From sequence record OQ599310: a stretch of 64,000 bases of DNA. One strand, given 5' to 3'. The notes beneath the pieces are model-generated. The model saw nothing but the letters and a program-made list of their open reading frames with translations. It had not been told where the DNA came from and did not search any database. Below are positions 2,454 through 46,863 of this stretch, piece after piece; within the stretch, counting starts at the first letter, position 1, and every line of letters starts with the position of its first letter. This DNA is from Escherichia phage 55. The position numbers were made by a program, and so were the translations under genes.

Positions 2454-3035
2454 ATGGCTAGTTTAATTTTTACATATGCCGCTATGAACGCTGGTAAGTC
2501 TGCTTCATTACTTACTGCCGCACATAACTATAAAGAACGTGGCATGGGTGTATTAGTTCTTAAACCGGCTATTGATACTCGTGATTCAAAAGGTGAAATA
2601 GTCTCTCGTATTGGTATTCGTCAGGATGCCAATATAATTACAAAAGACATGGACATCTTTGAATTCTATAAATGGGCTGCAGCACAAAAGGATATTCATT
2701 GTGTATTTGTTGACGAAGCTCAGTTCTTAACTACTGAAAAGGTGTATCAACTTAGTCGTATTGTTGACGTATACAATGTGCCAGTAATGGCATATGGGCT
2801 ACGAACAGATTTTAAAGGTAATCTATTTGAAGGTTCTCAAGCATTAATGGCTATTGCCGATAAGCTTGTTGAACTTAAAGGTGTCTGTCATTGTGGTAAA
2901 AAGGCCACAATGGTAGCTAGAGTCACGGAAGACGGACTTCCAATTACAGATGGCAGTCAAATTGAAATTGGTGATACCGATAGATATGTGTCATTATGCC
3001 GGAAGCATTGGAATGATTTGACAGGGTTGTTATAA
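2454..3035 (+). CDS. tk: thymidine kinase
   Basis: MASLIFTYAAMNAGKS P-loop start, CHCGKKA zinc motif; near-collinear with T4 Tk as recalled. Confidence 0.95.
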   Translation: MASLIFTYAAMNAGKSASLLTAAHNYKERGMGVLVLKPAIDTRDSKGEIVSRIGIRQDANIITKDMDIFEFYKWAAAQKDIHCVFVDEAQFLTTEKVYQLSRIVDVYNVPVMAYGLRTDFKGNLFEGSQALMAIADKLVELKGVCHCGKKATMVARVTEDGLPITDGSQIEIGDTDRYVSLCRKHWNDLTGLL

Positions 3036-31766: not shown

Positions 31767-32402
31767 ATGAAAACTACTCCTATTACTATCGCTATTGACG
31801 CAATTATAAAACAAGCTTCTTCTTTGGCCGCTATGGCCAAAGTAATTAGTCAAAACCCTGCTCGTTATAATGCTATTCTAGAAACTCTTCGACGCCCAGG
31901 ACTTAGCAATTATGAAAGCCGAGTAATTATTACAGGTGTTGGTAAGAATGCTAATATTGCAACTAAAGCTTCTGAGACATTTGCTTCACTCGGTATCCCA
32001 AGTATGTACTTGAACACCGGGCATTATTCTCACGGTGATGCAGGATTCATTGCGCCTAATGATGTGTTGATTCATATTAGTCGTTCTGGTAAAACTGAAG
32101 AAATGATAGGCGTGGCTAAGCATCTTAAAATGATTCGACCGAACGTCAAACAGATTCTGTTGCATTGTAACCCAGACATTCCACAAGAAAATGAAGCCCT
32201 TTTTGATTACTCTTTCTGTACAGGCATCGCGGTAGAGGTTGATGAGAATTCTCTGGCTCCGACCATGTCCACTACATTGTTGTTAGCGCTTATCGATACG
32301 TTTGCTATCAACCTTTCGTCTGAACGTGGATTTACCTCTAATGACTTCCTTAAGTTCCATCCAGGCGGTGCACTAGGTGCCATGTTACGAGGCGAGCAAT
32401 GA
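31767..32402 (+). CDS. single-domain SIS sugar-phosphate isomerase, D-arabinose-5-phosphate isomerase-like (KdsD/GutQ family)
   Basis: ITGVGKNANIATKASETFASLGIPS...HGDAGFI...ISRSGKTEE...LAPTMSTT...FHPGGALG tracks the KdsD SIS domain motifs. Confidence 0.7.
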   Translation: MKTTPITIAIDAIIKQASSLAAMAKVISQNPARYNAILETLRRPGLSNYESRVIITGVGKNANIATKASETFASLGIPSMYLNTGHYSHGDAGFIAPNDVLIHISRSGKTEEMIGVAKHLKMIRPNVKQILLHCNPDIPQENEALFDYSFCTGIAVEVDENSLAPTMSTTLLLALIDTFAINLSSERGFTSNDFLKFHPGGALGAMLRGEQ

Positions 32403-32542
32403 AAGCAATAACAATAGGACTTTTACTATTGATGCTTGCCATGACTATCTACTGGAGCTTAACGGCTCCAGTAATGATTCCAACACTTGTAATTGGATGG
32501 ATTATGATTGGTCTACAGGCAAAGTATGAATGCTTTAACTAG
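32399..32542 (+). CDS. small membrane ORF (47 aa), not in track
   Basis: ATGA overlap with upstream stop; two hydrophobic segments. Confidence 0.3.
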   Translation: MKAITIGLLLLMLAMTIYWSLTAPVMIPTLVIGWIMIGLQAKYECFN

Positions 32543-32583
32543 AATAGTGTACAATACACCTACTTACCAATGAGGACTTCAAC

Positions 32584-34269
32584 ATGAAAAAAGCTGTTAT
32601 TCTTGGTGCTGGATTAGCAACTCGTTTATATCCAATTACTCACCATATTCCTAAGGTGCTTGTTAACTATAAACAAGACACTATTCTGAGCAATTTGTAT
32701 ACAATTTATTCTGACCTTGGCGCAGATGAAATTATTGTAGTAGTTCATTCAAAATTTGCTGAAACTGTTCGAGCTTATTGTGAGCAAGAAGGGTTCAATG
32801 TGACTATTCGTACAGTTGATGAAGCGTATGGATCTGCTTATGCTCTTGCTAAATTACACAAAGATTTAGACGGCCATAATGTAATTGTTAACTGGTGTGA
32901 TATTATTCCTGATTTTGGTTCATGGTCTTGGAATGTCAACGCAATCTATGTTAAGGGTGATGAATGTCGATATAATTTCGACGGTGAAAATATCACTAAC
33001 GTAGGTTCAACAGGCGGTAATGTTGTAGGAATTTATCAGTTCAAAGACTGGGAATTCTATATGGGTTCTACCGATGAGGAAATTCATGAATACTGCAAAG
33101 GACGTGATTTCGTAGAATTCCTTTACAGCGGCGCATTCAATAAATCAGAGCTTATGAATATAATTGATTTAGGTGATATGCCTAAACTTGAAAAAGCTCA
33201 TGAAGTTCGTGAACTTAATCGTAGTTTTAATGCAGTTGAAATTGGTGAAGAAACTGTAACTAAATTCGCATTAACCGAACAGGGACGAGCTCTTCAGAAA
33301 GATGAGATTTCATGGTATTTGAAAGTGAAATCAGATTCAGTTCCTCAGTTAGTTTCTGTTAATGAAAACAATTTTGAAATGGAACGTATTAAAGGTAAGC
33401 CGGCATTTGAATATATTAAATCCAAATCAAGTCTTGCTCGTCCACAAATTGTTGATGCAATTTTAGATGCACTGAAATTCAGCACAGACACGTATTTTGT
33501 AAGTCCTGAAACTGTTCGTCGTGATTTCACTAAAGAATTCTATACGAAAGTTATTGATCGTTGTGAAAGCATTCAACCATTGATTGATTCATTTGGTAAA
33601 ATCACACATGTGAACTACACTAAGATTGGACGTCTGAAGCCAATGTTGAAACAAGCTTTAGAACATCTTATTCGTTATCATAACCGTTCTCAGGGACAGT
33701 ACTCTGTTATTCATGGTGACCCGAACTTCAGTAATACTATGATTACTGATAACGGCGAAGTCAAGTTTATCGACCCTCGTGGATATTTTGGCGAAACCAA
33801 GATTTACGGGCCAAAATTGTATGACGAAGCTAAAGTGCTTTATGCTGTTTCAGGTTATGATGAATTCAATGCTAATCCGACCTGGGGACAGTTTACTATT
33901 GATGAAACAACTTGTAATGTGACTATTAACATCAATCCATTAATTTACAAATATGGAAAGATGAGTTCGTTTAACGAGTATCATCATTTGGCGGTGGCAA
34001 TTATCTGGATTGCATTAGGTGGTTATTTCAAGAATAATCCACTTAAAGCGGTAGCCGCATATTATAAAGGTATGGAACTTCTGACTAAGCAATTACGTAA
34101 CATGGGCCGTGTACTTCAAGACGGCTCTATTAGTTATGACGTAGCAGAACCTGTAACGGCTACTCTGATTACAAAAAATCCTGGTAAATGGGTACTAACT
34201 GATAAAGAAACTGGTGTTTCCTATCGTCCAATCGGTGGCGATATCACTCACCAATGGGAACGAATCTAA
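32584..34269 (+). CDS. bifunctional sugar-1-phosphate nucleotidyltransferase / sugar kinase
   Basis: N-terminus AVILGAGLATRLYPIT (sugar nucleotidyltransferase G-x-G-x-R-L motif); C-terminus HGDPNFSN...IDPRG (APH/choline-kinase-like catalytic loop). Confidence 0.65.
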   Translation: MKKAVILGAGLATRLYPITHHIPKVLVNYKQDTILSNLYTIYSDLGADEIIVVVHSKFAETVRAYCEQEGFNVTIRTVDEAYGSAYALAKLHKDLDGHNVIVNWCDIIPDFGSWSWNVNAIYVKGDECRYNFDGENITNVGSTGGNVVGIYQFKDWEFYMGSTDEEIHEYCKGRDFVEFLYSGAFNKSELMNIIDLGDMPKLEKAHEVRELNRSFNAVEIGEETVTKFALTEQGRALQKDEISWYLKVKSDSVPQLVSVNENNFEMERIKGKPAFEYIKSKSSLARPQIVDAILDALKFSTDTYFVSPETVRRDFTKEFYTKVIDRCESIQPLIDSFGKITHVNYTKIGRLKPMLKQALEHLIRYHNRSQGQYSVIHGDPNFSNTMITDNGEVKFIDPRGYFGETKIYGPKLYDEAKVLYAVSGYDEFNANPTWGQFTIDETTCNVTININPLIYKYGKMSSFNEYHHLAVAIIWIALGGYFKNNPLKAVAAYYKGMELLTKQLRNMGRVLQDGSISYDVAEPVTATLITKNPGKWVLTDKETGVSYRPIGGDITHQWERI

Positions 34270-34655
34270 TGCACCGTGTAGAAAACATGCTTAATCTTTG
34301 TTTTGATGTCGATGATTGTATAACAGAGTGGAATAACAATCGTGATTACGTGAACTTCAAACCAGACGTCGAAATGGTGTCTGCCATTAATGCCTTGTAT
34401 GATGCAGGGCATACCATAACGCTTTACACTGCTCGCGGTATGAAGTCAGTAGGTCCCGGTCGTATAGCAATTGACATTCTCCCGAGTCTGATTCAGAACT
34501 TGGAAAACATTGGCTTGAAGTACCATAATTTGCTAACACATAAACCAGTATATGATTGGATTATCGACGACAAAGCTATGCGTCCTGACGAATTCAAAGC
34601 TCTTATGAATAAAGGCGAATTCGAAACATTTAAATCATATAAACCGAATCTATAA
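34269..34655 (+). CDS. HAD-superfamily phosphatase
   Basis: motif I FDVDDCIT, motif II TLYTAR, motif III K (LTHKP), motif IV WIIDD; TAATG-coupled start. Confidence 0.6.
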   Translation: MHRVENMLNLCFDVDDCITEWNNNRDYVNFKPDVEMVSAINALYDAGHTITLYTARGMKSVGPGRIAIDILPSLIQNLENIGLKYHNLLTHKPVYDWIIDDKAMRPDEFKALMNKGEFETFKSYKPNL

Positions 34656-34709
34656 TAATTTAAGTAAGACCTGCAAAAACCATCGCATCAATTAACGCGA
34701 GATGCAAAA

Positions 34710-35870
34710 ATGAACACTTTTAAAATCGGAACGAATTTTGATTTAGCTCTTCTTGATAAAATCGTAGAGCTCAATAAAACCTATCCTAATAGCTTGATAA
34801 ACGAAGTATATGGCTCTACAAGAGAAATGGCTTTTGTAGCAGCCAGACCTGATTTTAGGCTTCCTGACGTTGACAAAAAGATGTTAGAAGACTACGTTAA
34901 ACGTTGTAACGAATTAGGTATTTGCTTTAACTATACACTCAACACGATAAATCCTGGTTCAAAAAGAGAACTAGTTGAGTGGAAGAAGAAAGCTATTCAG
35001 GATTATGTTCAGTATCTTTGGTCAATAGGCGTATGGCGTATTACTATCGCTAACCCTGTTGTTATGGAAATTGTTCGTGAAGTCAATAAAGATATTGAGA
35101 TTGAAGTTTCAACAATTCTACATGTCGATGCTGTAACTCAAATCAAATACTTGCACGACCAATATAACATCAAAAAAGTCTGTTGCGGAATTCATAAGAA
35201 CCGTTCAGTTTCTTTCCTGAAGCGTGCAGCAGAGTTTTGCAATAAGAACAATATAATATTTGAAGTTCTTGTAAATGAGTTCTGTTCTAATGCTGGTAAA
35301 GGGTATACAACACATTGTAGTTATCGTGACTCTTGCTATATTTTCCATAGTACTGATGTTACCGCTGATGATGCTAAATCCTTAAATGGATATCCAATGC
35401 AGCACTGTATTAAAGCTCGTGATACAGATCCATTTAACTGGTTGAGAACTCGTTTTGTTCGTCCTCAAGATTTGAAACTTTATAATGATATTGGTATCAC
35501 TCAATTCAAAGTTTCAGGACGTACAGGTAGCACAGACTACATTTTGAAAGTTCTTGAAGCATACGCTTCTGAAAAGTTTGAAGGTAATTTGTTAGAACTG
35601 TGGAAGCCTTTAGAGACTATTTTCACTCTTGAAAACGAAACTGAGTTTTCACATACAGTAAATATTGAAACCTCTTTGTTAGATGGCTTTTTAGAAAAAA
35701 GGTGGTTCAGACATCCAGATTTTGATTGTGCTAATGAAATCTGTGGGTCAACGTGTACATATTGTGAAAGGTATTATAAACGTCAATTATCTAAAAACGG
35801 GTTAGCAGAAAACTCCATATCTATTATTGATATAACTAGCTCTGATGACGCTTTGAGATACCCGGAATGA
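34710..35870 (+). CDS. hypothetical enzyme with C-terminal Cys cluster (possible metal/Fe-S site)
   Basis: 386 aa; C-x4-C-x3-C-x2-C (CANEICGSTCTYC) near C-terminus plus internal Cys cluster; no confident family assignment. Confidence 0.55.
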   Translation: MNTFKIGTNFDLALLDKIVELNKTYPNSLINEVYGSTREMAFVAARPDFRLPDVDKKMLEDYVKRCNELGICFNYTLNTINPGSKRELVEWKKKAIQDYVQYLWSIGVWRITIANPVVMEIVREVNKDIEIEVSTILHVDAVTQIKYLHDQYNIKKVCCGIHKNRSVSFLKRAAEFCNKNNIIFEVLVNEFCSNAGKGYTTHCSYRDSCYIFHSTDVTADDAKSLNGYPMQHCIKARDTDPFNWLRTRFVRPQDLKLYNDIGITQFKVSGRTGSTDYILKVLEAYASEKFEGNLLELWKPLETIFTLENETEFSHTVNIETSLLDGFLEKRWFRHPDFDCANEICGSTCTYCERYYKRQLSKNGLAENSISIIDITSSDDALRYPE

Positions 35871-36106
35871 TTTCTAGAAAAAGTTTTAATTATAAACTTA
35901 ACGAAGAGATTTTGACTATGAAACTGAACACTAACGAACAAATTCTTAAAAAGGCCCTTATGGGCCTGTTTGAAACCAAAGCGGCTAAAGTGATTAAAGA
36001 ACCTGTTCAATTGGAATACTACACTGATGCATTCCTTCATAGTGTTCTTGGAAGTATAGATTCTGAAGCTTTACGTTATATCAACATTGCCAAGAAATTC
36101 AAATAA
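35867..36106 (+). CDS. hypothetical small protein
   Basis: ATGA-coupled ORF; alternative internal ATG at 35918. Confidence 0.45.
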   Translation: MISRKSFNYKLNEEILTMKLNTNEQILKKALMGLFETKAAKVIKEPVQLEYYTDAFLHSVLGSIDSEALRYINIAKKFK

Positions 36107-42600: not shown

Positions 42601-42623
42601 TATCAACTATAGAGGAAATTGAA

Positions 42624-42992
42624 ATGAAAAAATTAATCGCTTTAGCAATGGTATTTGGATTAACCGGATGTGGTGCTCATGGCTTTATCCCTAATAACGT
42701 TGGCCAATTGATTTATAACCCGAATGTTAAACAGTATAACCAACCTAAAGTTGAAGTGGAAGACCCGGTTACTGTAGGTAATCGAATGATTCAAGCTGAT
42801 GCTCATGCTCAACGTTATCGTGACTCTGATACTGTAGCTATGTCAAAAGAACAACGCGTTAAAGAACATTGTCTACAGGCTACTGAAATCGCATTTATTC
42901 GCTATGTTGAAACAACTGGTAAAGAGCCTACCCAGAAACAAATCGCGAATAACTACGTCCAGTGTATTGAACGTTTAAACAAATTTAATTAA
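42624..42992 (+). CDS. predicted lipoprotein
   Basis: MKKLIALAMVFGLTGC lipobox; AGAGGAAA RBS before ATG 42624. Confidence 0.5.
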   Translation: MKKLIALAMVFGLTGCGAHGFIPNNVGQLIYNPNVKQYNQPKVEVEDPVTVGNRMIQADAHAQRYRDSDTVAMSKEQRVKEHCLQATEIAFIRYVETTGKEPTQKQIANNYVQCIERLNKFN

Positions 42993-43053
42993 TTGGTTTA
43001 CACCAAAGTTAAACCAAGATACTATAAACATAACAAATCAAGAGGAAATTAAC

Positions 43054-43302
43054 ATGGAATTATTCGTGGCTAGTTCAGTAGCAGTTTTAATCGCAGGTAT
43101 TGGTTCAATCATCATTTACATGTTGCCTTGGGTAATCGCACTTATTCGTGGCACAAAAAGCACAACAGCAATCTTCTTTGTATCTTTACTCTTTAACTGG
43201 ACGATGGTTGGTTGGATTGGAACTTTAATTTGGTCTATCGTTGCCGAAAAGAAATCGGCTCAGCAGCCTCAACAAGTAATTATTATTCGCGAAAAAGAAT
43301 AA
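43054..43302 (+). CDS. small two-TM membrane protein
   Basis: two hydrophobic helices separated by RGTK. Confidence 0.55.
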   Translation: MELFVASSVAVLIAGIGSIIIYMLPWVIALIRGTKSTTAIFFVSLLFNWTMVGWIGTLIWSIVAEKKSAQQPQQVIIIREKE

Positions 43303-43306
43303 ACTT

Positions 43307-43345
43307 GTTTACATTATAGATGGACTATAGTATAGTAGTCCTATC
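43307..43345 (+). promoter_or_regulatory. early promoter (GTTTAC, TATAGT) with inverted repeat
   Basis: GTTTAC 43307..43312, TATAGT 43331..43336; GGACTA/TAGTCC arms. Confidence 0.5.
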
Positions 43346-43365
43346 AAATCAACTAAGGAGTTAAA

Positions 43366-43659
43366 ATGAAAAAGTTATCATTGGCAGCAATCCTACTTGC
43401 AGTATCATGTGCACCGGCTCCAGTTACGGCAGGTTATGATAAAGACCTCTGTGAGTGGTCAATGACTGCAAATCAAGAAGATGTTGAACAACAAATCTTC
43501 TCTGATATCATGAACATCACTAAACGAGACCGTCCTAATATGGTTAATAAAGTTGTTGAACAACTTAAGTCTGGCGGTATCATGCAGTACAACTATGTTT
43601 TGTATTGTGACCCTAATTTCGATAACAAAGATATCGTAACCGAAATCACAGGTGAATAA
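43366..43659 (+). CDS. exported protein, Spackle (sp)-like by size, signal peptide and position
   Basis: 97 aa; signal peptide MKKLSLAAILLAVSCA; between genes 41 and 61 as T4 sp. Confidence 0.4.
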   Translation: MKKLSLAAILLAVSCAPAPVTAGYDKDLCEWSMTANQEDVEQQIFSDIMNITKRDRPNMVNKVVEQLKSGGIMQYNYVLYCDPNFDNKDIVTEITGE

Positions 43660-43660
43660 T

Positions 43661-45036: not shown

Positions 45037-46059
45037 ATGGCTGAATGGATAGATAATGAATTTGCTTATCGTGCGTTTTCTCACCTACCTCGTTTTAGAC
45101 AAATCAATAATTCAAGCACATTTAAATTAACATTTCGATGCCCAGTTTGTGGCGACTCTCAGACAGATGCAATGAAAGCCCGCGGATGGTATTATGGCGG
45201 TACTCCAGGTAATGTGCATTGCTATAACTGTCAATATCATAATACAATTTCTGGATACTTAAAAGAGTACGATGAAGAGCTTTATCGCGAGTATCTAATG
45301 GAAGTTCGTAAAGAAAAAGCTAGAATGGAACCAAAGATTGAAAAGGTTCCTGAAGCTAAGCCGGAGCCAGAGAAAAAGACTATAAATTCTTTGCCGTCTT
45401 GTTCTCGTCTGGACAAGCTGCCTGAAGAGCATCCTATTGTGAAATATGTTAAGTCTCGGTGTATTCCTAAAGAATCGTGGAACAGATTATGGTTCACATT
45501 AGAATGGCCCAAATTGGTCAACAAGATTCAACCTGGTACGTATAAGAAAGAGATTCCCGAACCACGTTTAGTGATTCCTATTTTTAATAAAGACGGGAAG
45601 GCCGAGTCATTCCAAGGACGTGCACTTCGTAAAGATGCTCCTCAGAAATATATCACTATTAAAGCGTTTGAGTCTGCAACAAAAATTTATGGTGTTGAAC
45701 GTGTTAAGGAAGGGGACGTCTGGGTAATGGAAGGCCCTATTGATAGTTTATTCATACCCAATGCAATCGCTATTACAGGCGGCTCAATAGATTTAGATGT
45801 GGTACCATTTAAAGAACGTCGGGTATGGGTAATGGATAATGAACCTAGGCATCCGGATACTATAGCTCGTATGAAGCGATTAGTTGATGCAGGCGAACGT
45901 GTCATGTTCTGGGACCGAGCTCCATGGAGATCAAAGGATGTGAATGATATGGTAATGAAAGAAAATGCAACACCACAAGAAATTTTAGAATATATGAAAC
46001 AGAATATTTCAAGTGGGTTGCATGCTAAAATGAGATTATCTCGTTATTCGAAGATTTAA
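45037..46059 (+). CDS. 61: DNA primase gp61
   Basis: N-terminal zinc ribbon CPVCGDS...CYNC; TOPRIM-like region. Confidence 0.9.
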   Translation: MAEWIDNEFAYRAFSHLPRFRQINNSSTFKLTFRCPVCGDSQTDAMKARGWYYGGTPGNVHCYNCQYHNTISGYLKEYDEELYREYLMEVRKEKARMEPKIEKVPEAKPEPEKKTINSLPSCSRLDKLPEEHPIVKYVKSRCIPKESWNRLWFTLEWPKLVNKIQPGTYKKEIPEPRLVIPIFNKDGKAESFQGRALRKDAPQKYITIKAFESATKIYGVERVKEGDVWVMEGPIDSLFIPNAIAITGGSIDLDVVPFKERRVWVMDNEPRHPDTIARMKRLVDAGERVMFWDRAPWRSKDVNDMVMKENATPQEILEYMKQNISSGLHAKMRLSRYSKI

Positions 46060-46253
46060 ACAAGCCCTATAATAGCAAAGGCCAAATCAACTACAGTATC
46101 CAATGGAACAGAAGGAACCATAACACCATGGGCAACTAACAATGGTGCAATCCCGAAGTTCCATGAAATAATGCCACCTACAACTATTGCAGCGATAGCA
46201 GTTTTCTTTTTATTGCCTTTAATAGCGTTGATTAACGATGGAAGTTTAAACAT
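46056..46253 (-). CDS. small membrane protein on the minus strand
   Basis: AAGGAG RBS 7 nt upstream of ATG (minus strand); two hydrophobic segments; convergent with gene 61. Confidence 0.5.
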   Translation of the reverse strand: MFKLPSLINAIKGNKKKTAIAAIVVGGIISWNFGIAPLLVAHGVMVPSVPLDTVVDLAFAIIGLV

Positions 46254-46284
46254 AATATCTCCTTAGTTACCTATTATTTATTAC

Positions 46285-46308
46285 GCTTTATAAAATTAAT
46301 GGTAGAAT
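46285..46308 (+). promoter_or_regulatory. middle promoter of gene 56 (GCTTTA box + TAGAAT)
   Basis: cGCTTTA 46284..46290, 12-nt gap, TAGAAT 46303..46308. Confidence 0.45.
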
Positions 46309-46341
46309 TAACTTTCTTATACTGAATTGAAAGGAAAAATA

Positions 46342-46863
46342 ATGGCACACTTTAACGAATGTTCACAACTTATTTCTGGTGTTGATAAAGCAGAAGAAGC
46401 TTATTTTAATGCTCTGATTCACGAAGATAAAGACCCACTGCAGGTAATGCTTGATATGCAGAAATCTTTACAGGTTCGTCTGGCAAATGACAAGCCTGAA
46501 CATAACAAACATCCTGATGAATTGGCTACTGCTGGTGATGTTGTTGATTGGCTGCGTAATCAGAAAGATTATATTGATGATGAATTCCGTGAACTGCTGA
46601 CTTCACTTGGTGGTATGAGCAATGGTGAAAAAGCCGCTAGCTCTGTATGGAAGCCATGGAAAGCACAACATGCTGAATATCGTAATCGTCGTATTGATGA
46701 ACTGTCTCCTGAAGACCAACTGGAAATTAAGTTTGAAATGATTGATATTCTCCATTTCGTTCTGAACATGTTCCAAGGTCTTGGTCTTACAGCAGAAGAA
46801 ATCTTTAAACTTTATTACCTGAAAAATGCTGAAAATTTCGCACGTCAAGACCGAGGTTATTAA
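46342..46863 (+). CDS. 56: dCTP pyrophosphatase gp56
   Basis: MAHFNECSQLISGVDKAEE...; matches T4 gp56 as recalled. Confidence 0.9.
   Translation: MAHFNECSQLISGVDKAEEAYFNALIHEDKDPLQVMLDMQKSLQVRLANDKPEHNKHPDELATAGDVVDWLRNQKDYIDDEFRELLTSLGGMSNGEKAASSVWKPWKAQHAEYRNRRIDELSPEDQLEIKFEMIDILHFVLNMFQGLGLTAEEIFKLYYLKNAENFARQDRGY

What the first reader, a model, noticed from the sequence alone, without database searches (positions are those of the whole stretch)
46056..46341. Lone minus-strand gene between primase and dCTPase
The only convincing minus-strand gene in 64 kb encodes a 65-aa two-TM membrane protein with a strong RBS, convergent with gene 61 (stops overlap) and divergent from gene 56. As I recall, T4 carries other genes (including dam) around this interval, and no methyltransferase-like ORF is present here. 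Opposite-strand placement suggests different timing or regulation; the function could be superinfection exclusion or lysis timing, which is speculative.
Basis: partly seen in the sequence, partly recalled or inferred. Interest (0 to 1): 0.4.

Follow-up and report, generated by a model that had tools for sequence, protein, structure and literature searches.

The report
Conserved late small membrane-protein gene (dam.1)
The lone opposite-strand ORF between the primase and dCTPase genes of this RB69-like T-even phage is a real, widely conserved gene for a 65-residue single-pass membrane protein, probably switched on late in infection; relatives already annotate it as a hypothetical protein, the T4 reference genome does not, and its function is unknown.

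Summary
The window is a Mosigvirus (RB69-like) early-gene region. The ORF at 46056-46253 (-) is real. It has an ATG start and an AAGGAG ribosome-binding site. Its stop overlaps the gene 61 stop by 4 nt, and it sits in the largest gap in plus-strand coding. It is the only opposite-strand CDS among 100 annotated in a collinear relative.

It is RB69ORF029w, called "dam.1" in the RB3 record, and belongs to PHROG 2024 (function unknown). Orthologs hold the same position in at least six Tevenvirinae genera, with dN/dS of 0.10-0.36. T4 has a 66-aa ortholog at NC_000866 17738-17938 that its RefSeq annotation omits, so T4 carries dam in addition to this gene, not instead of it.

A late-promoter-like AATAAATA lies 21 nt upstream of the ATG. 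It is the only ATAAATA on the minus strand. All seven copies in the window (about 30 expected by chance) sit just upstream of ORF starts, including rI, 49 and soc.

Topology is one transmembrane helix plus a short C-terminal helix, not two transmembrane helices. No Pfam, NCBIfam, PADLOC or PDB relatives were found. Function is unknown; exclusion and lysis-timing roles stay speculative.

The parts
46056..46253 (-). CDS of the 65-aa small membrane protein (ortholog of RB69ORF029w / 'dam.1'; PHROG 2024). It has a basic N-terminus (K3, K12, K15-17), a TM helix at about 18-41 with invariant W31 N32 P37, then G43, P47, L51 and a short acidic C-terminal helix.
46259..46264 (-). Shine-Dalgarno sequence AAGGAG, 5 nt upstream of the ATG. 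A GGAG/GGAGG at the same spacing is present in every lineage examined.
46275..46282 (-). AATAAATA, a T4-type late-promoter motif (consensus TATAAATA, with -13 variable). It lies 21 nt upstream of the ATG, which predicts a transcription start near 46269. It is the only ATAAATA on the minus strand of the window.
   Evidence: PMC1524935
46281..46308 (+). MotA-type middle promoter for gene 56: Mot box TTACGCTTTA at 46281-46290, a 12-nt spacer, and -10 TAGAAT at 46303-46308. It lies back to back with the late motif. The homologous RB69 site was predicted as Pm:16038.
45037..46059 (+). Gene 61 (DNA primase), convergent neighbour. Its stop codon overlaps the stop of the small ORF (TTAA, 46056-46059).
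46342..46863 (+). Gene 56 (dCTPase/dUTPase), divergent neighbour.

Best explanation
The ORF is a real accessory gene of T-even-type phages (RB69ORF029w, 'dam.1', PHROG 2024).

Shown:
- It is under purifying selection.
- It keeps its position, convergent with the primase gene and on the strand opposite to all early genes, in Tequatro-, Mosig-, Gapriver-, Moon-, Gelderland- and Jiaodavirus.

Inferred, expression:
- It is silent early, because early and middle transcription crosses it antisense.
- It is transcribed late by gp55-RNA polymerase from the AATAAATA at 46275-46282, giving a leader of about 16 nt with a strong ribosome-binding site.

Inferred, protein:
- The product inserts into the inner membrane as a single-pass N-in/C-out protein. 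The lysine-rich N-terminus stays in the cytoplasm. One TM helix carries the invariant W-N-x4-P. A 24-residue periplasmic tail carries the conserved HG-x3-P-x3-L-(D/E) motif and a short amphipathic helix.

Most likely mode of action (inference only): it binds a membrane partner, host or phage, through its polar TM face and short periplasmic tail. That would modify an envelope process late in infection. Within that, I weight protection of the infected cell against secondary adsorption or DNA entry slightly above holin or lysis-timing control. The physiological role is untested.
For: Gene reality:
- phrog_2024 match, E 2.6e-27.
- 858 phage records by tblastn, 691 of them covering at least 80% of the query.
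- Syntenic orthologs in six named genera plus a metagenomic T4-like contig.
- dN/dS 0.10-0.36.
- Invariant W31, N32, P37 and G43 across 30 diverse members.

Late timing:
- ATAAATA occurs 7 times in the window against 29.6 +/- 6.0 expected.
- All six + strand copies lie 12-35 nt upstream of ORF starts, including the rI, 49 and soc homologs.
- The single minus-strand copy lies 21 nt before this ATG.
- xATAAATA is retained upstream of the orthologs in T4, RB3/T6, Gapriver-, Jiaodavirus and L016, although those upstream regions are otherwise unalignable.
- The -13 position is known to vary between A and T in T4 relatives (PMC1524935).
- No sigma-70-like promoter was found on that strand.

Topology:
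- One TMHMM helix and the AlphaFold2 model (pLDDT 79.7).
- Charge distribution: five K/R at the N-terminus and only D52 and D56 at the C-terminus.
- Hessa-scale sums.

Accessory, envelope-type role:
- The only relatives outside T4-like phages lie in the accessory region after the tail-tip gene, at the end of enterobacterial prophages.
- The family is confined to phages of Enterobacteriaceae.
- Gaprivervirus carries two diverged tandem paralogs.
Against: - No transcript, protein or phenotype data could be found. There is no paper on dam.1 or RB69ORF029w, and the T4 dRNA-seq TSS table is not held.
- The promoter motif matches 7 of 8 positions, and only 6 of 8 (ATTAAATA) in Moon- and Gelderlandvirus.
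- Nolan et al. did not list a late promoter here for RB69.
- In Jiaodavirus the motif is only 12 nt from the ATG, which would leave a very short leader.
- T4's known exclusion proteins (Imm, Sp) are early, so a late exclusion factor is not an obvious need.
- The known rapid-lysis genes are rI, rIII, rIV (= sp) and rV (= t) (PMC6832632). From my own knowledge, the extensive r-mutant search of Burch et al. 2011 reported no locus here.
- The prophage relatives are always linked to proteins of about 180 aa and about 105 aa that T4-like phages lack, so their context may not transfer.
Confidence: 0.55

Rival explanations
1. Lysis-timing factor. The protein is a holin-like or antiholin-like regulator that acts on the T holin, RI or the spanins in the inner membrane late in infection.
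For: - It is small, membrane-inserted and probably late.
- One record and one UniProt entry label orthologs 'holin' or 'putative holin'. These are unverified labels.
- In Escherichia phage DCP80 the unannotated relative lies near a weakly Rz-like TM/coiled-coil protein and 1.3 kb from a lysozyme gene.
Against: - No holin Pfam or NCBIfam match.
- The charge layout is the reverse of typical holins: a basic N-terminus and a hydrophobic, acidic C-terminus.
- It is not adjacent to any endolysin in T4-like phages.
- T4-type phages already have T, RI, RIII and spanins, and the known r loci do not include this site (PMC6832632).
- In the complete E. coli PSS-15 prophage the relative sits after the tail-tip gene at the prophage end, not in a lysis cassette.
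Confidence: 0.18
2. The ORF matters mainly as RNA or as a transcription unit. A late antisense transcript running into the 3' end of gene 61 shuts down primase expression or insulates the 61 and 56 units, and the peptide is incidental.
For: - No terminator follows the ORF on its strand, so a late transcript would run antisense into gene 61.
- In T4-type phages the gene 61 terminator hairpin lies inside the first codons of the ORF.
- The 4-nt stop overlap is conserved in most genera.
Against: - Protein-level constraint is clear: dN/dS 0.10-0.36, saturated synonymous sites between genera with conserved W-N, P and G positions, and a conserved Shine-Dalgarno sequence.
- Relatives in unrelated prophages keep the protein without any primase neighbour.
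- Jiaodavirus has an 18-nt spacer instead of the overlap.
Confidence: 0.07
3. Membrane-associated assembly factor, for example helping prohead or baseplate initiation at the inner membrane.
For: - Probable late timing.
- A 'putative head morphogenesis protein' label in the T6 RefSeq record.
- Prophage relatives lie next to tail genes and to an approximately 180-aa protein with a weak 'minor tail protein' PHROG match.
Against: - The T6 label was propagated by similarity to another unverified label, and the same label is also attached to 61.1 in that record.
- The family is absent from T4-like phages of Aeromonas, Acinetobacter, Vibrio and cyanobacteria, which share the core morphogenesis genes. 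Only 18 cluster representatives were found among 1.84 billion proteins.
Confidence: 0.05
4. Chance ORF in a promoter/terminator spacer, not a gene.
For: It is short, AT-rich and unannotated in the T4 reference.
Against: Cross-genus conservation of frame, length (60-69 aa), ribosome-binding site and key residues, together with low dN/dS.
Confidence: 0.01

Closest known systems
RB69ORF029w (NP_861719) / 'dam.1' of RB3 and other T-even relatives; PHROG phrog_2024; pVOG VOG1982
   Same: Ortholog. It is 95% identical to the RB69 protein and 100% identical to the proteins of phages mobillu and AV117. Position, strand and stop overlap with gene 61 are the same.
   Different: Nothing substantive. The family itself has no assigned function and no literature.
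Unannotated T4 ORF at NC_000866 17738-17938 (+), between dam and gene 61
   Same: 66 aa, 55.6% identical, with the same W-N/P/HG/P/LD pattern, the same 4-nt overlap with gene 61, and GATAAATA 21 nt upstream of the ATG.
   Different: - T4 has dam (and segF) inserted between it and gene 56.
- T4-type phages place an intrinsic terminator for gene 61 inside the ORF's 5' end, which the window lacks.
T4 Imm and Sp (superinfection immunity / spackle)
   Same: Small envelope proteins of the same phages, encoded about 2-3 kb upstream in this window. This is an analogy for a possible exclusion or envelope-protection role.
   Different: - No sequence similarity.
- Imm and Sp are on the early strand.
- Sp is periplasmic, with a signal peptide.
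HK97 gp15-type moron exclusion proteins (small single-pass inner-membrane proteins encoded beside tail genes; recalled from the literature, not tested here)
   Same: The prophage relatives of this family are small single-pass membrane proteins encoded just after the tail-tip gene, at the prophage end.
   Different: No homology was tested or known. The T4-like members are in a replication-gene neighbourhood and are probably late-expressed.
Phage holins / antiholins (e.g. T4 T, RI)
   Same: Small, late, inner-membrane proteins.
   Different: - No family match.
- Reversed charge layout.
- No endolysin linkage in T4-like phages.

Membership tests
PHROG 2024 / RB69ORF029w / dam.1 family | Full-length sequence match to the family profile | tested here: met
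   phrog_2024 E 2.6e-27, residues 1-65 against profile positions 1-65 of 65. The window protein is 95% identical to the RB69 protein.
PHROG 2024 / RB69ORF029w / dam.1 family | Synteny: opposite strand, immediately downstream of and convergent with primase gene 61, on the gene 56 side | tested here: met
PHROG 2024 / RB69ORF029w / dam.1 family | Conserved residues W-N in the TM helix, P37, G43, P47 | tested here: met
   Invariant W31, N32, P37 and G43 and near-invariant P47 and G63 in 30 members.
T4-type late genes (gp55/gp33/gp45-dependent) | TATAAATA-type motif at -13 to -6, a short distance upstream of the gene, on the strand opposite to early genes | tested here: met
   AATAAATA at 46275-46282 (-). 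The same variant precedes the rI and gene 49 homologs in this window. The heptamer is fourfold depleted and is otherwise found only upstream of ORF starts. The -13 position is variable in T4 relatives (PMC1524935).
T4-type late genes (gp55/gp33/gp45-dependent) | Transcription that depends on gp55 and DNA replication and appears late in infection | not testable with these tools
   No expression data are held. The T4 dRNA-seq TSS table is not available.
Holins | Match to a holin family model | tested here: not met
   No Pfam or NCBIfam hit for the window protein or for 30 family members. The only Foldseek matches in BFVD are its own family.
Holins | Hydrophilic, highly charged C-terminal cytoplasmic tail; genetic linkage to an endolysin | tested here: not met
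   The C-terminus is hydrophobic and acidic, and the basic cluster is N-terminal. The neighbours are primase and dCTPase.
Holins | Forms lethal membrane lesions that release endolysin | not testable with these tools
   Needs expression experiments.
T4 Imm / Sp superinfection-exclusion proteins | Sequence membership (Imm or Spackle families) | tested here: not met
   No Pfam hit. The true imm, imm.1 and sp homologs lie elsewhere in the window region.
T4 Imm / Sp superinfection-exclusion proteins | Blocks DNA entry or gp5 lysozyme of superinfecting phage | not testable with these tools
   Needs infection assays.
   TMHMM gives one TM at 21-41 for the RB69 ortholog. The AlphaFold2 C-terminal helix is 12 residues long. 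The C-terminal 19-mers score +5 to +11 kcal/mol.
Type I toxin-like small membrane peptides (Hok/Ldr etc.) | Family match and a cis-antisense RNA antitoxin | tested here: not met
   Only one of 30 members gives a sub-threshold Ldr_toxin hit (E 0.1). No PADLOC hit.

The most novel reading that the evidence does not exclude
dam.1 is an overlooked, late-expressed inner-membrane factor common to T4, T2, T6, RB69 and their enterobacterial relatives. It could be, for example, a further component of lysis-inhibition, lysis-from-without or exclusion control, or a modulator of a host inner-membrane protein. It would have escaped study because the T4 reference annotation, and therefore annotation-based screens, omit it.
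Probability: 0.25. Interest if true: 0.55.

Novelty: already known. Interest (0 to 1): 0.3.

Why it matters
On its own this is an ordinary conserved hypothetical gene.

Its modest value is practical. The same gene sits unannotated in the T4 reference genome (NC_000866 17738-17938), so expression arrays, proteomics and knock-down libraries built on that annotation would not have interrogated it.

It is also a clean example of a single late-strand gene embedded in about 50 kb of early genes. That makes it a convenient reporter for late-promoter use and for antisense effects on primase expression.

If its membrane partner were found, it could add a component to the still incompletely understood envelope events of late T-even infection: lysis inhibition, lysis from without, and exclusion.

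Tried and rejected
- **Curated family searches.** Pfam, NCBIfam, PADLOC and PDB-sequence searches with the protein and with 30 family members gave nothing above noise.
- **Fold search.** Foldseek of the AlphaFold2 model against viral structures returned only its own family, one member of which carries an unverified 'Holin' label.
- **Exhaustive profile search.** Against 1.84 billion representatives it gave only 18 hits, all phage-like.
- **Distant relatives for functional context.**
  - They lie after the tail-tip gene of enterobacterial prophages, linked to unknown proteins of about 180 aa and about 105 aa.
  - I first suspected a holin-endolysin-spanin order there. I rejected it because the 179-aa and 105-aa proteins are soluble and basic and have no lysin match. 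In a complete E. coli prophage the module also sits at the prophage end.
- **Scans for more relatives.** Alignments A3 and A4 were too divergent to scan with. The genome-contig scan with A5 found nothing, and the IMG/VR scan found one locus.
- **Literature.**
  - Searches for dam.1, RB69ORF029w, T4 antisense or late transcription at this site, ribosome profiling, and phage essentiality screens gave nothing on this gene.
  - Miller et al. 2003 and Burch et al. 2011 are not held.
  - The supplementary TSS table of the T4 dRNA-seq preprint is not held.
- **Rejected annotations.** 'Putative head morphogenesis protein', 'DNA packaging ATPase' and 'holin' are propagated, unsupported labels.

Full report
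**What the window is.** The 2.1 kb around the finding is 96-99% identical to many Mosigvirus (RB69-like) genomes such as phiEC1, SHSML-52-1 and mobillu. The flanking ORFs are gene 61 primase (45037-46059, +; phrog_47, E 9e-102) and gene 56 dCTPase (46342-46863, +; phrog_173, E 1e-45).

**The observation.**
- A 65-aa ATG ORF runs from 46253 to 46056 on the minus strand.
- AAGGAG lies 5 nt upstream of its ATG.
- Its TAA and the gene 61 TAA share the four bases TTAA at 46056-46059.
- The interval 46060-46326 is the longest stretch of the 64 kb not covered by a + strand ORF of at least 50 aa.
- None of the ten longest other minus-strand ORFs matches any PHROG.
- In the independent annotation of phage mobillu, collinear with window positions 1 to about 49,500, only this one of 100 CDS is on the other strand.
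- No homolog of T4 Dam is present anywhere in the window (best E 0.7).

**It is a real gene, and an already catalogued one.**
- The protein matches phrog_2024 ('unknown function') over its full length, E 2.6e-27.
- Close relatives annotate it as a hypothetical protein. RB69 has listed it as RB69ORF029w since that genome was published.
- tblastn finds it in 858 phage records, 691 of them covering at least 80% of the query.
- It occupies the same slot, on the opposite strand just past the 3' end of the primase gene, in:
  - Tequatrovirus: T4, T6, RB3, fPS-2
  - Mosigvirus
  - Gaprivervirus
  - Moonvirus
  - Gelderlandvirus
  - Jiaodavirus
  - a metagenomic T4-like contig
- Within genera, pairs with synonymous divergence give dN/dS of 0.10-0.36. 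Between Mosig- and Gaprivervirus, synonymous sites are saturated (dS 2.3) while dN is 0.49.
- Across 30 diverse members, W31, N32, P37 and G43 are invariant and P47 and G63 nearly so.
- A GGAG-type ribosome-binding site is kept in every lineage.

**T4 has it too.** T4 in fact has a 66-aa ortholog that is 55.6% identical (L003 3239-3439 = NC_000866 17738-17938, + strand). It overlaps the gene 61 stop by the same 4 nt. It lies in the roughly 310-bp gap that the RefSeq annotation leaves empty between dam and gene 61. In T4, dam and segF are additional insertions between this gene and 56. The Mosigvirus arrangement is the same minus dam.

**Timing.** All early and middle transcription in this region runs on the + strand, so the gene needs its own promoter.
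- On its strand, AATAAATA lies at 46275-46282, 21 nt before the ATG. The T4 late-promoter consensus is TATAAATA at -13 to -6. Nolan et al. reported that -13 is poorly conserved (A or T) in T4 relatives (PMC1524935).
- The heptamer ATAAATA is strongly avoided in the window: 7 copies on both strands against 29.6 +/- 6.0 in shuffles.
- All six + strand copies sit 12-35 nt upstream of ORF starts. These include the homologs of three T4 genes known to have late promoters: rI (AATAAATA), 49 (AATAAATA) and soc (TATAAATA).
- The single minus-strand copy is the one in front of this ORF.
- The motif is retained upstream of the orthologs in regions that are otherwise unalignable:
  - GATAAATA in T4, at the same 21-nt spacing
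  - AATAAATA in RB3, T6 and fPS-2
  - CATAAATA in Gapriver-, Jiaodavirus and L016
  - the weaker ATTAAATA in Moon- and Gelderlandvirus
- No sigma-70-like promoter was detected on that strand.
- Directly abutting on the + strand is a MotA-type middle promoter for gene 56 (TTACGCTTTA, 12-nt spacer, TAGAAT). It is homologous to the RB69 site that Nolan et al. predicted as Pm:16038.

Late, gp55-dependent expression is therefore well supported by sequence but not demonstrated. I found no expression data.

**The protein.**
- The N-terminal 17 residues carry five K/R and no acidic residue. The C-terminal 24 residues carry D52 and D56 and no basic residue. This predicts N-in/C-out.
- Published TMHMM for RB69ORF029w gives a single TM at 21-41.
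- AlphaFold2 with a 30-sequence alignment (pLDDT 79.7) gives helices at 4-11, 15-41 and 51-62, with a proline-rich loop at 42-50.
- A crude Hessa-scale sum puts TM1 near the insertion threshold (-2.4 to +3.3 kcal/mol). The C-terminal segment is far above it (+5 to +11) in every lineage (scale values from memory).
- The protein is therefore single-pass with a short periplasmic or interfacial helix, not a two-TM hairpin.
- The invariant Asn and Pro inside the TM helix suggest helix-helix association with a partner. This is inference.

**Relatives and function.**
- No Pfam, NCBIfam, PADLOC or PDB-sequence relative exists.
- Fold search returns only its own family.
- An exhaustive profile search of 1.84 billion representatives gives 18 hits.
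- The few non-T4-like members sit in enterobacterial prophages or siphophage contigs, directly after the tail-tip (J-type) gene. There they are preceded by a TM/coiled-coil protein and an endonuclease VII gene. They are followed by conserved proteins of about 180 aa and about 105 aa of unknown function, near the prophage end.
- That is the kind of place where accessory envelope or exclusion genes are often found. A lysozyme gene and a weakly Rz-like protein are also nearby in one phage.
- Context therefore does not discriminate exclusion from lysis roles.
- Against a classical lysis-inhibition role, the known r loci are rI, rIII, sp and t (PMC6832632).
- Labels such as 'holin', 'head morphogenesis protein' or 'DNA packaging ATPase' on some orthologs are unsupported.

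**Verdict.** This is a real, conserved, probably late-transcribed gene for a single-pass inner-membrane protein. It is already annotated as a hypothetical protein in relatives and is of unknown function. The two-TM call and the implied contrast with T4 are wrong. The functional guesses remain guesses. Interest is modest. The most useful by-product is that the T4 reference annotation lacks this gene.

Noticed in passing
L003 3239-3439 (= NC_000866 17738-17938, + strand): The T4 RefSeq annotation has no CDS for the 66-aa ortholog. It leaves a gap of about 310 bp between dam and gene 61. Other T-even records annotate the ORF (RB3 as 'dam.1').
   Followed up: yes
window 3032, 3255, 6426, 6438, 14099, 47242 (+) and 46275-46281 (-): The late-promoter heptamer ATAAATA is about fourfold depleted in the window (7 copies against about 30 expected). 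Every copy lies just upstream of an ORF start. These include the rI homolog (ATG 3288), gene 49 (ATG 14135), soc (ATG 47280), and an 86-aa signal-peptide ORF (ATG 6465) that is preceded by two tandem copies. The copy at 3032 has no ORF of at least 40 aa starting within 70 nt.
   Followed up: partly
L003 3254-3273 (- strand), T4: In T4-type phages a terminator-like hairpin plus T-run for the gene 61 transcript lies inside codons 6-12 of the opposite-strand ORF. fPS-2 annotates a terminator at the same place. The window and RB69 lack it, so transcripts from gene 61 probably read through into gene 56 there.
   Followed up: partly
L010 2001-2198 and 2207-2407; L007 2715-2816: Gaprivervirus P479 carries two diverged tandem paralogs of the family. 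The second resembles the Klebsiella-phage (MGTxFYQIWKL) subtype. In Yersinia phage vB_YenM_P8 the second copy is reduced to a 33-aa remnant next to an inserted homing endonuclease gene.
   Followed up: partly
L021 9517-9690 (Escherichia phage DCP80, PQ671644): There is an unannotated 57-aa family member (phrog_2024, E 4e-4) between the endonuclease VII gene and a 183-aa ORF. The record is classified as Gaprivervirus, but this region has a J-type tail tip and a small terminase typical of a siphophage, so the record may be chimeric or mislabelled.
   Followed up: partly
L023 20067-25021 (E. coli PSS-15 prophage); L015, L017, L019: A conserved accessory module sits at the end of enterobacterial prophages. 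Its order is: TM/coiled-coil protein, endonuclease VII, phrog_2024 member, an approximately 180-aa basic protein, an approximately 105-aa protein, and in two of the loci a protein of about 790 aa. None has a known function.
   Followed up: partly
window about 42620-43660: imm.1, imm and sp homologs lie together between dmd and the 61.x genes, as in RB69, rather than imm lying between genes 42 and 43 as in T4.
   Followed up: no
window about 31900-36000: Downstream of the DNA polymerase gene, the collinear relative annotates arabinose-5-phosphate isomerase, GlmU-like and related sugar-nucleotide genes. From my own knowledge this is presumably the RB69-type DNA hypermodification cluster.
   Followed up: no
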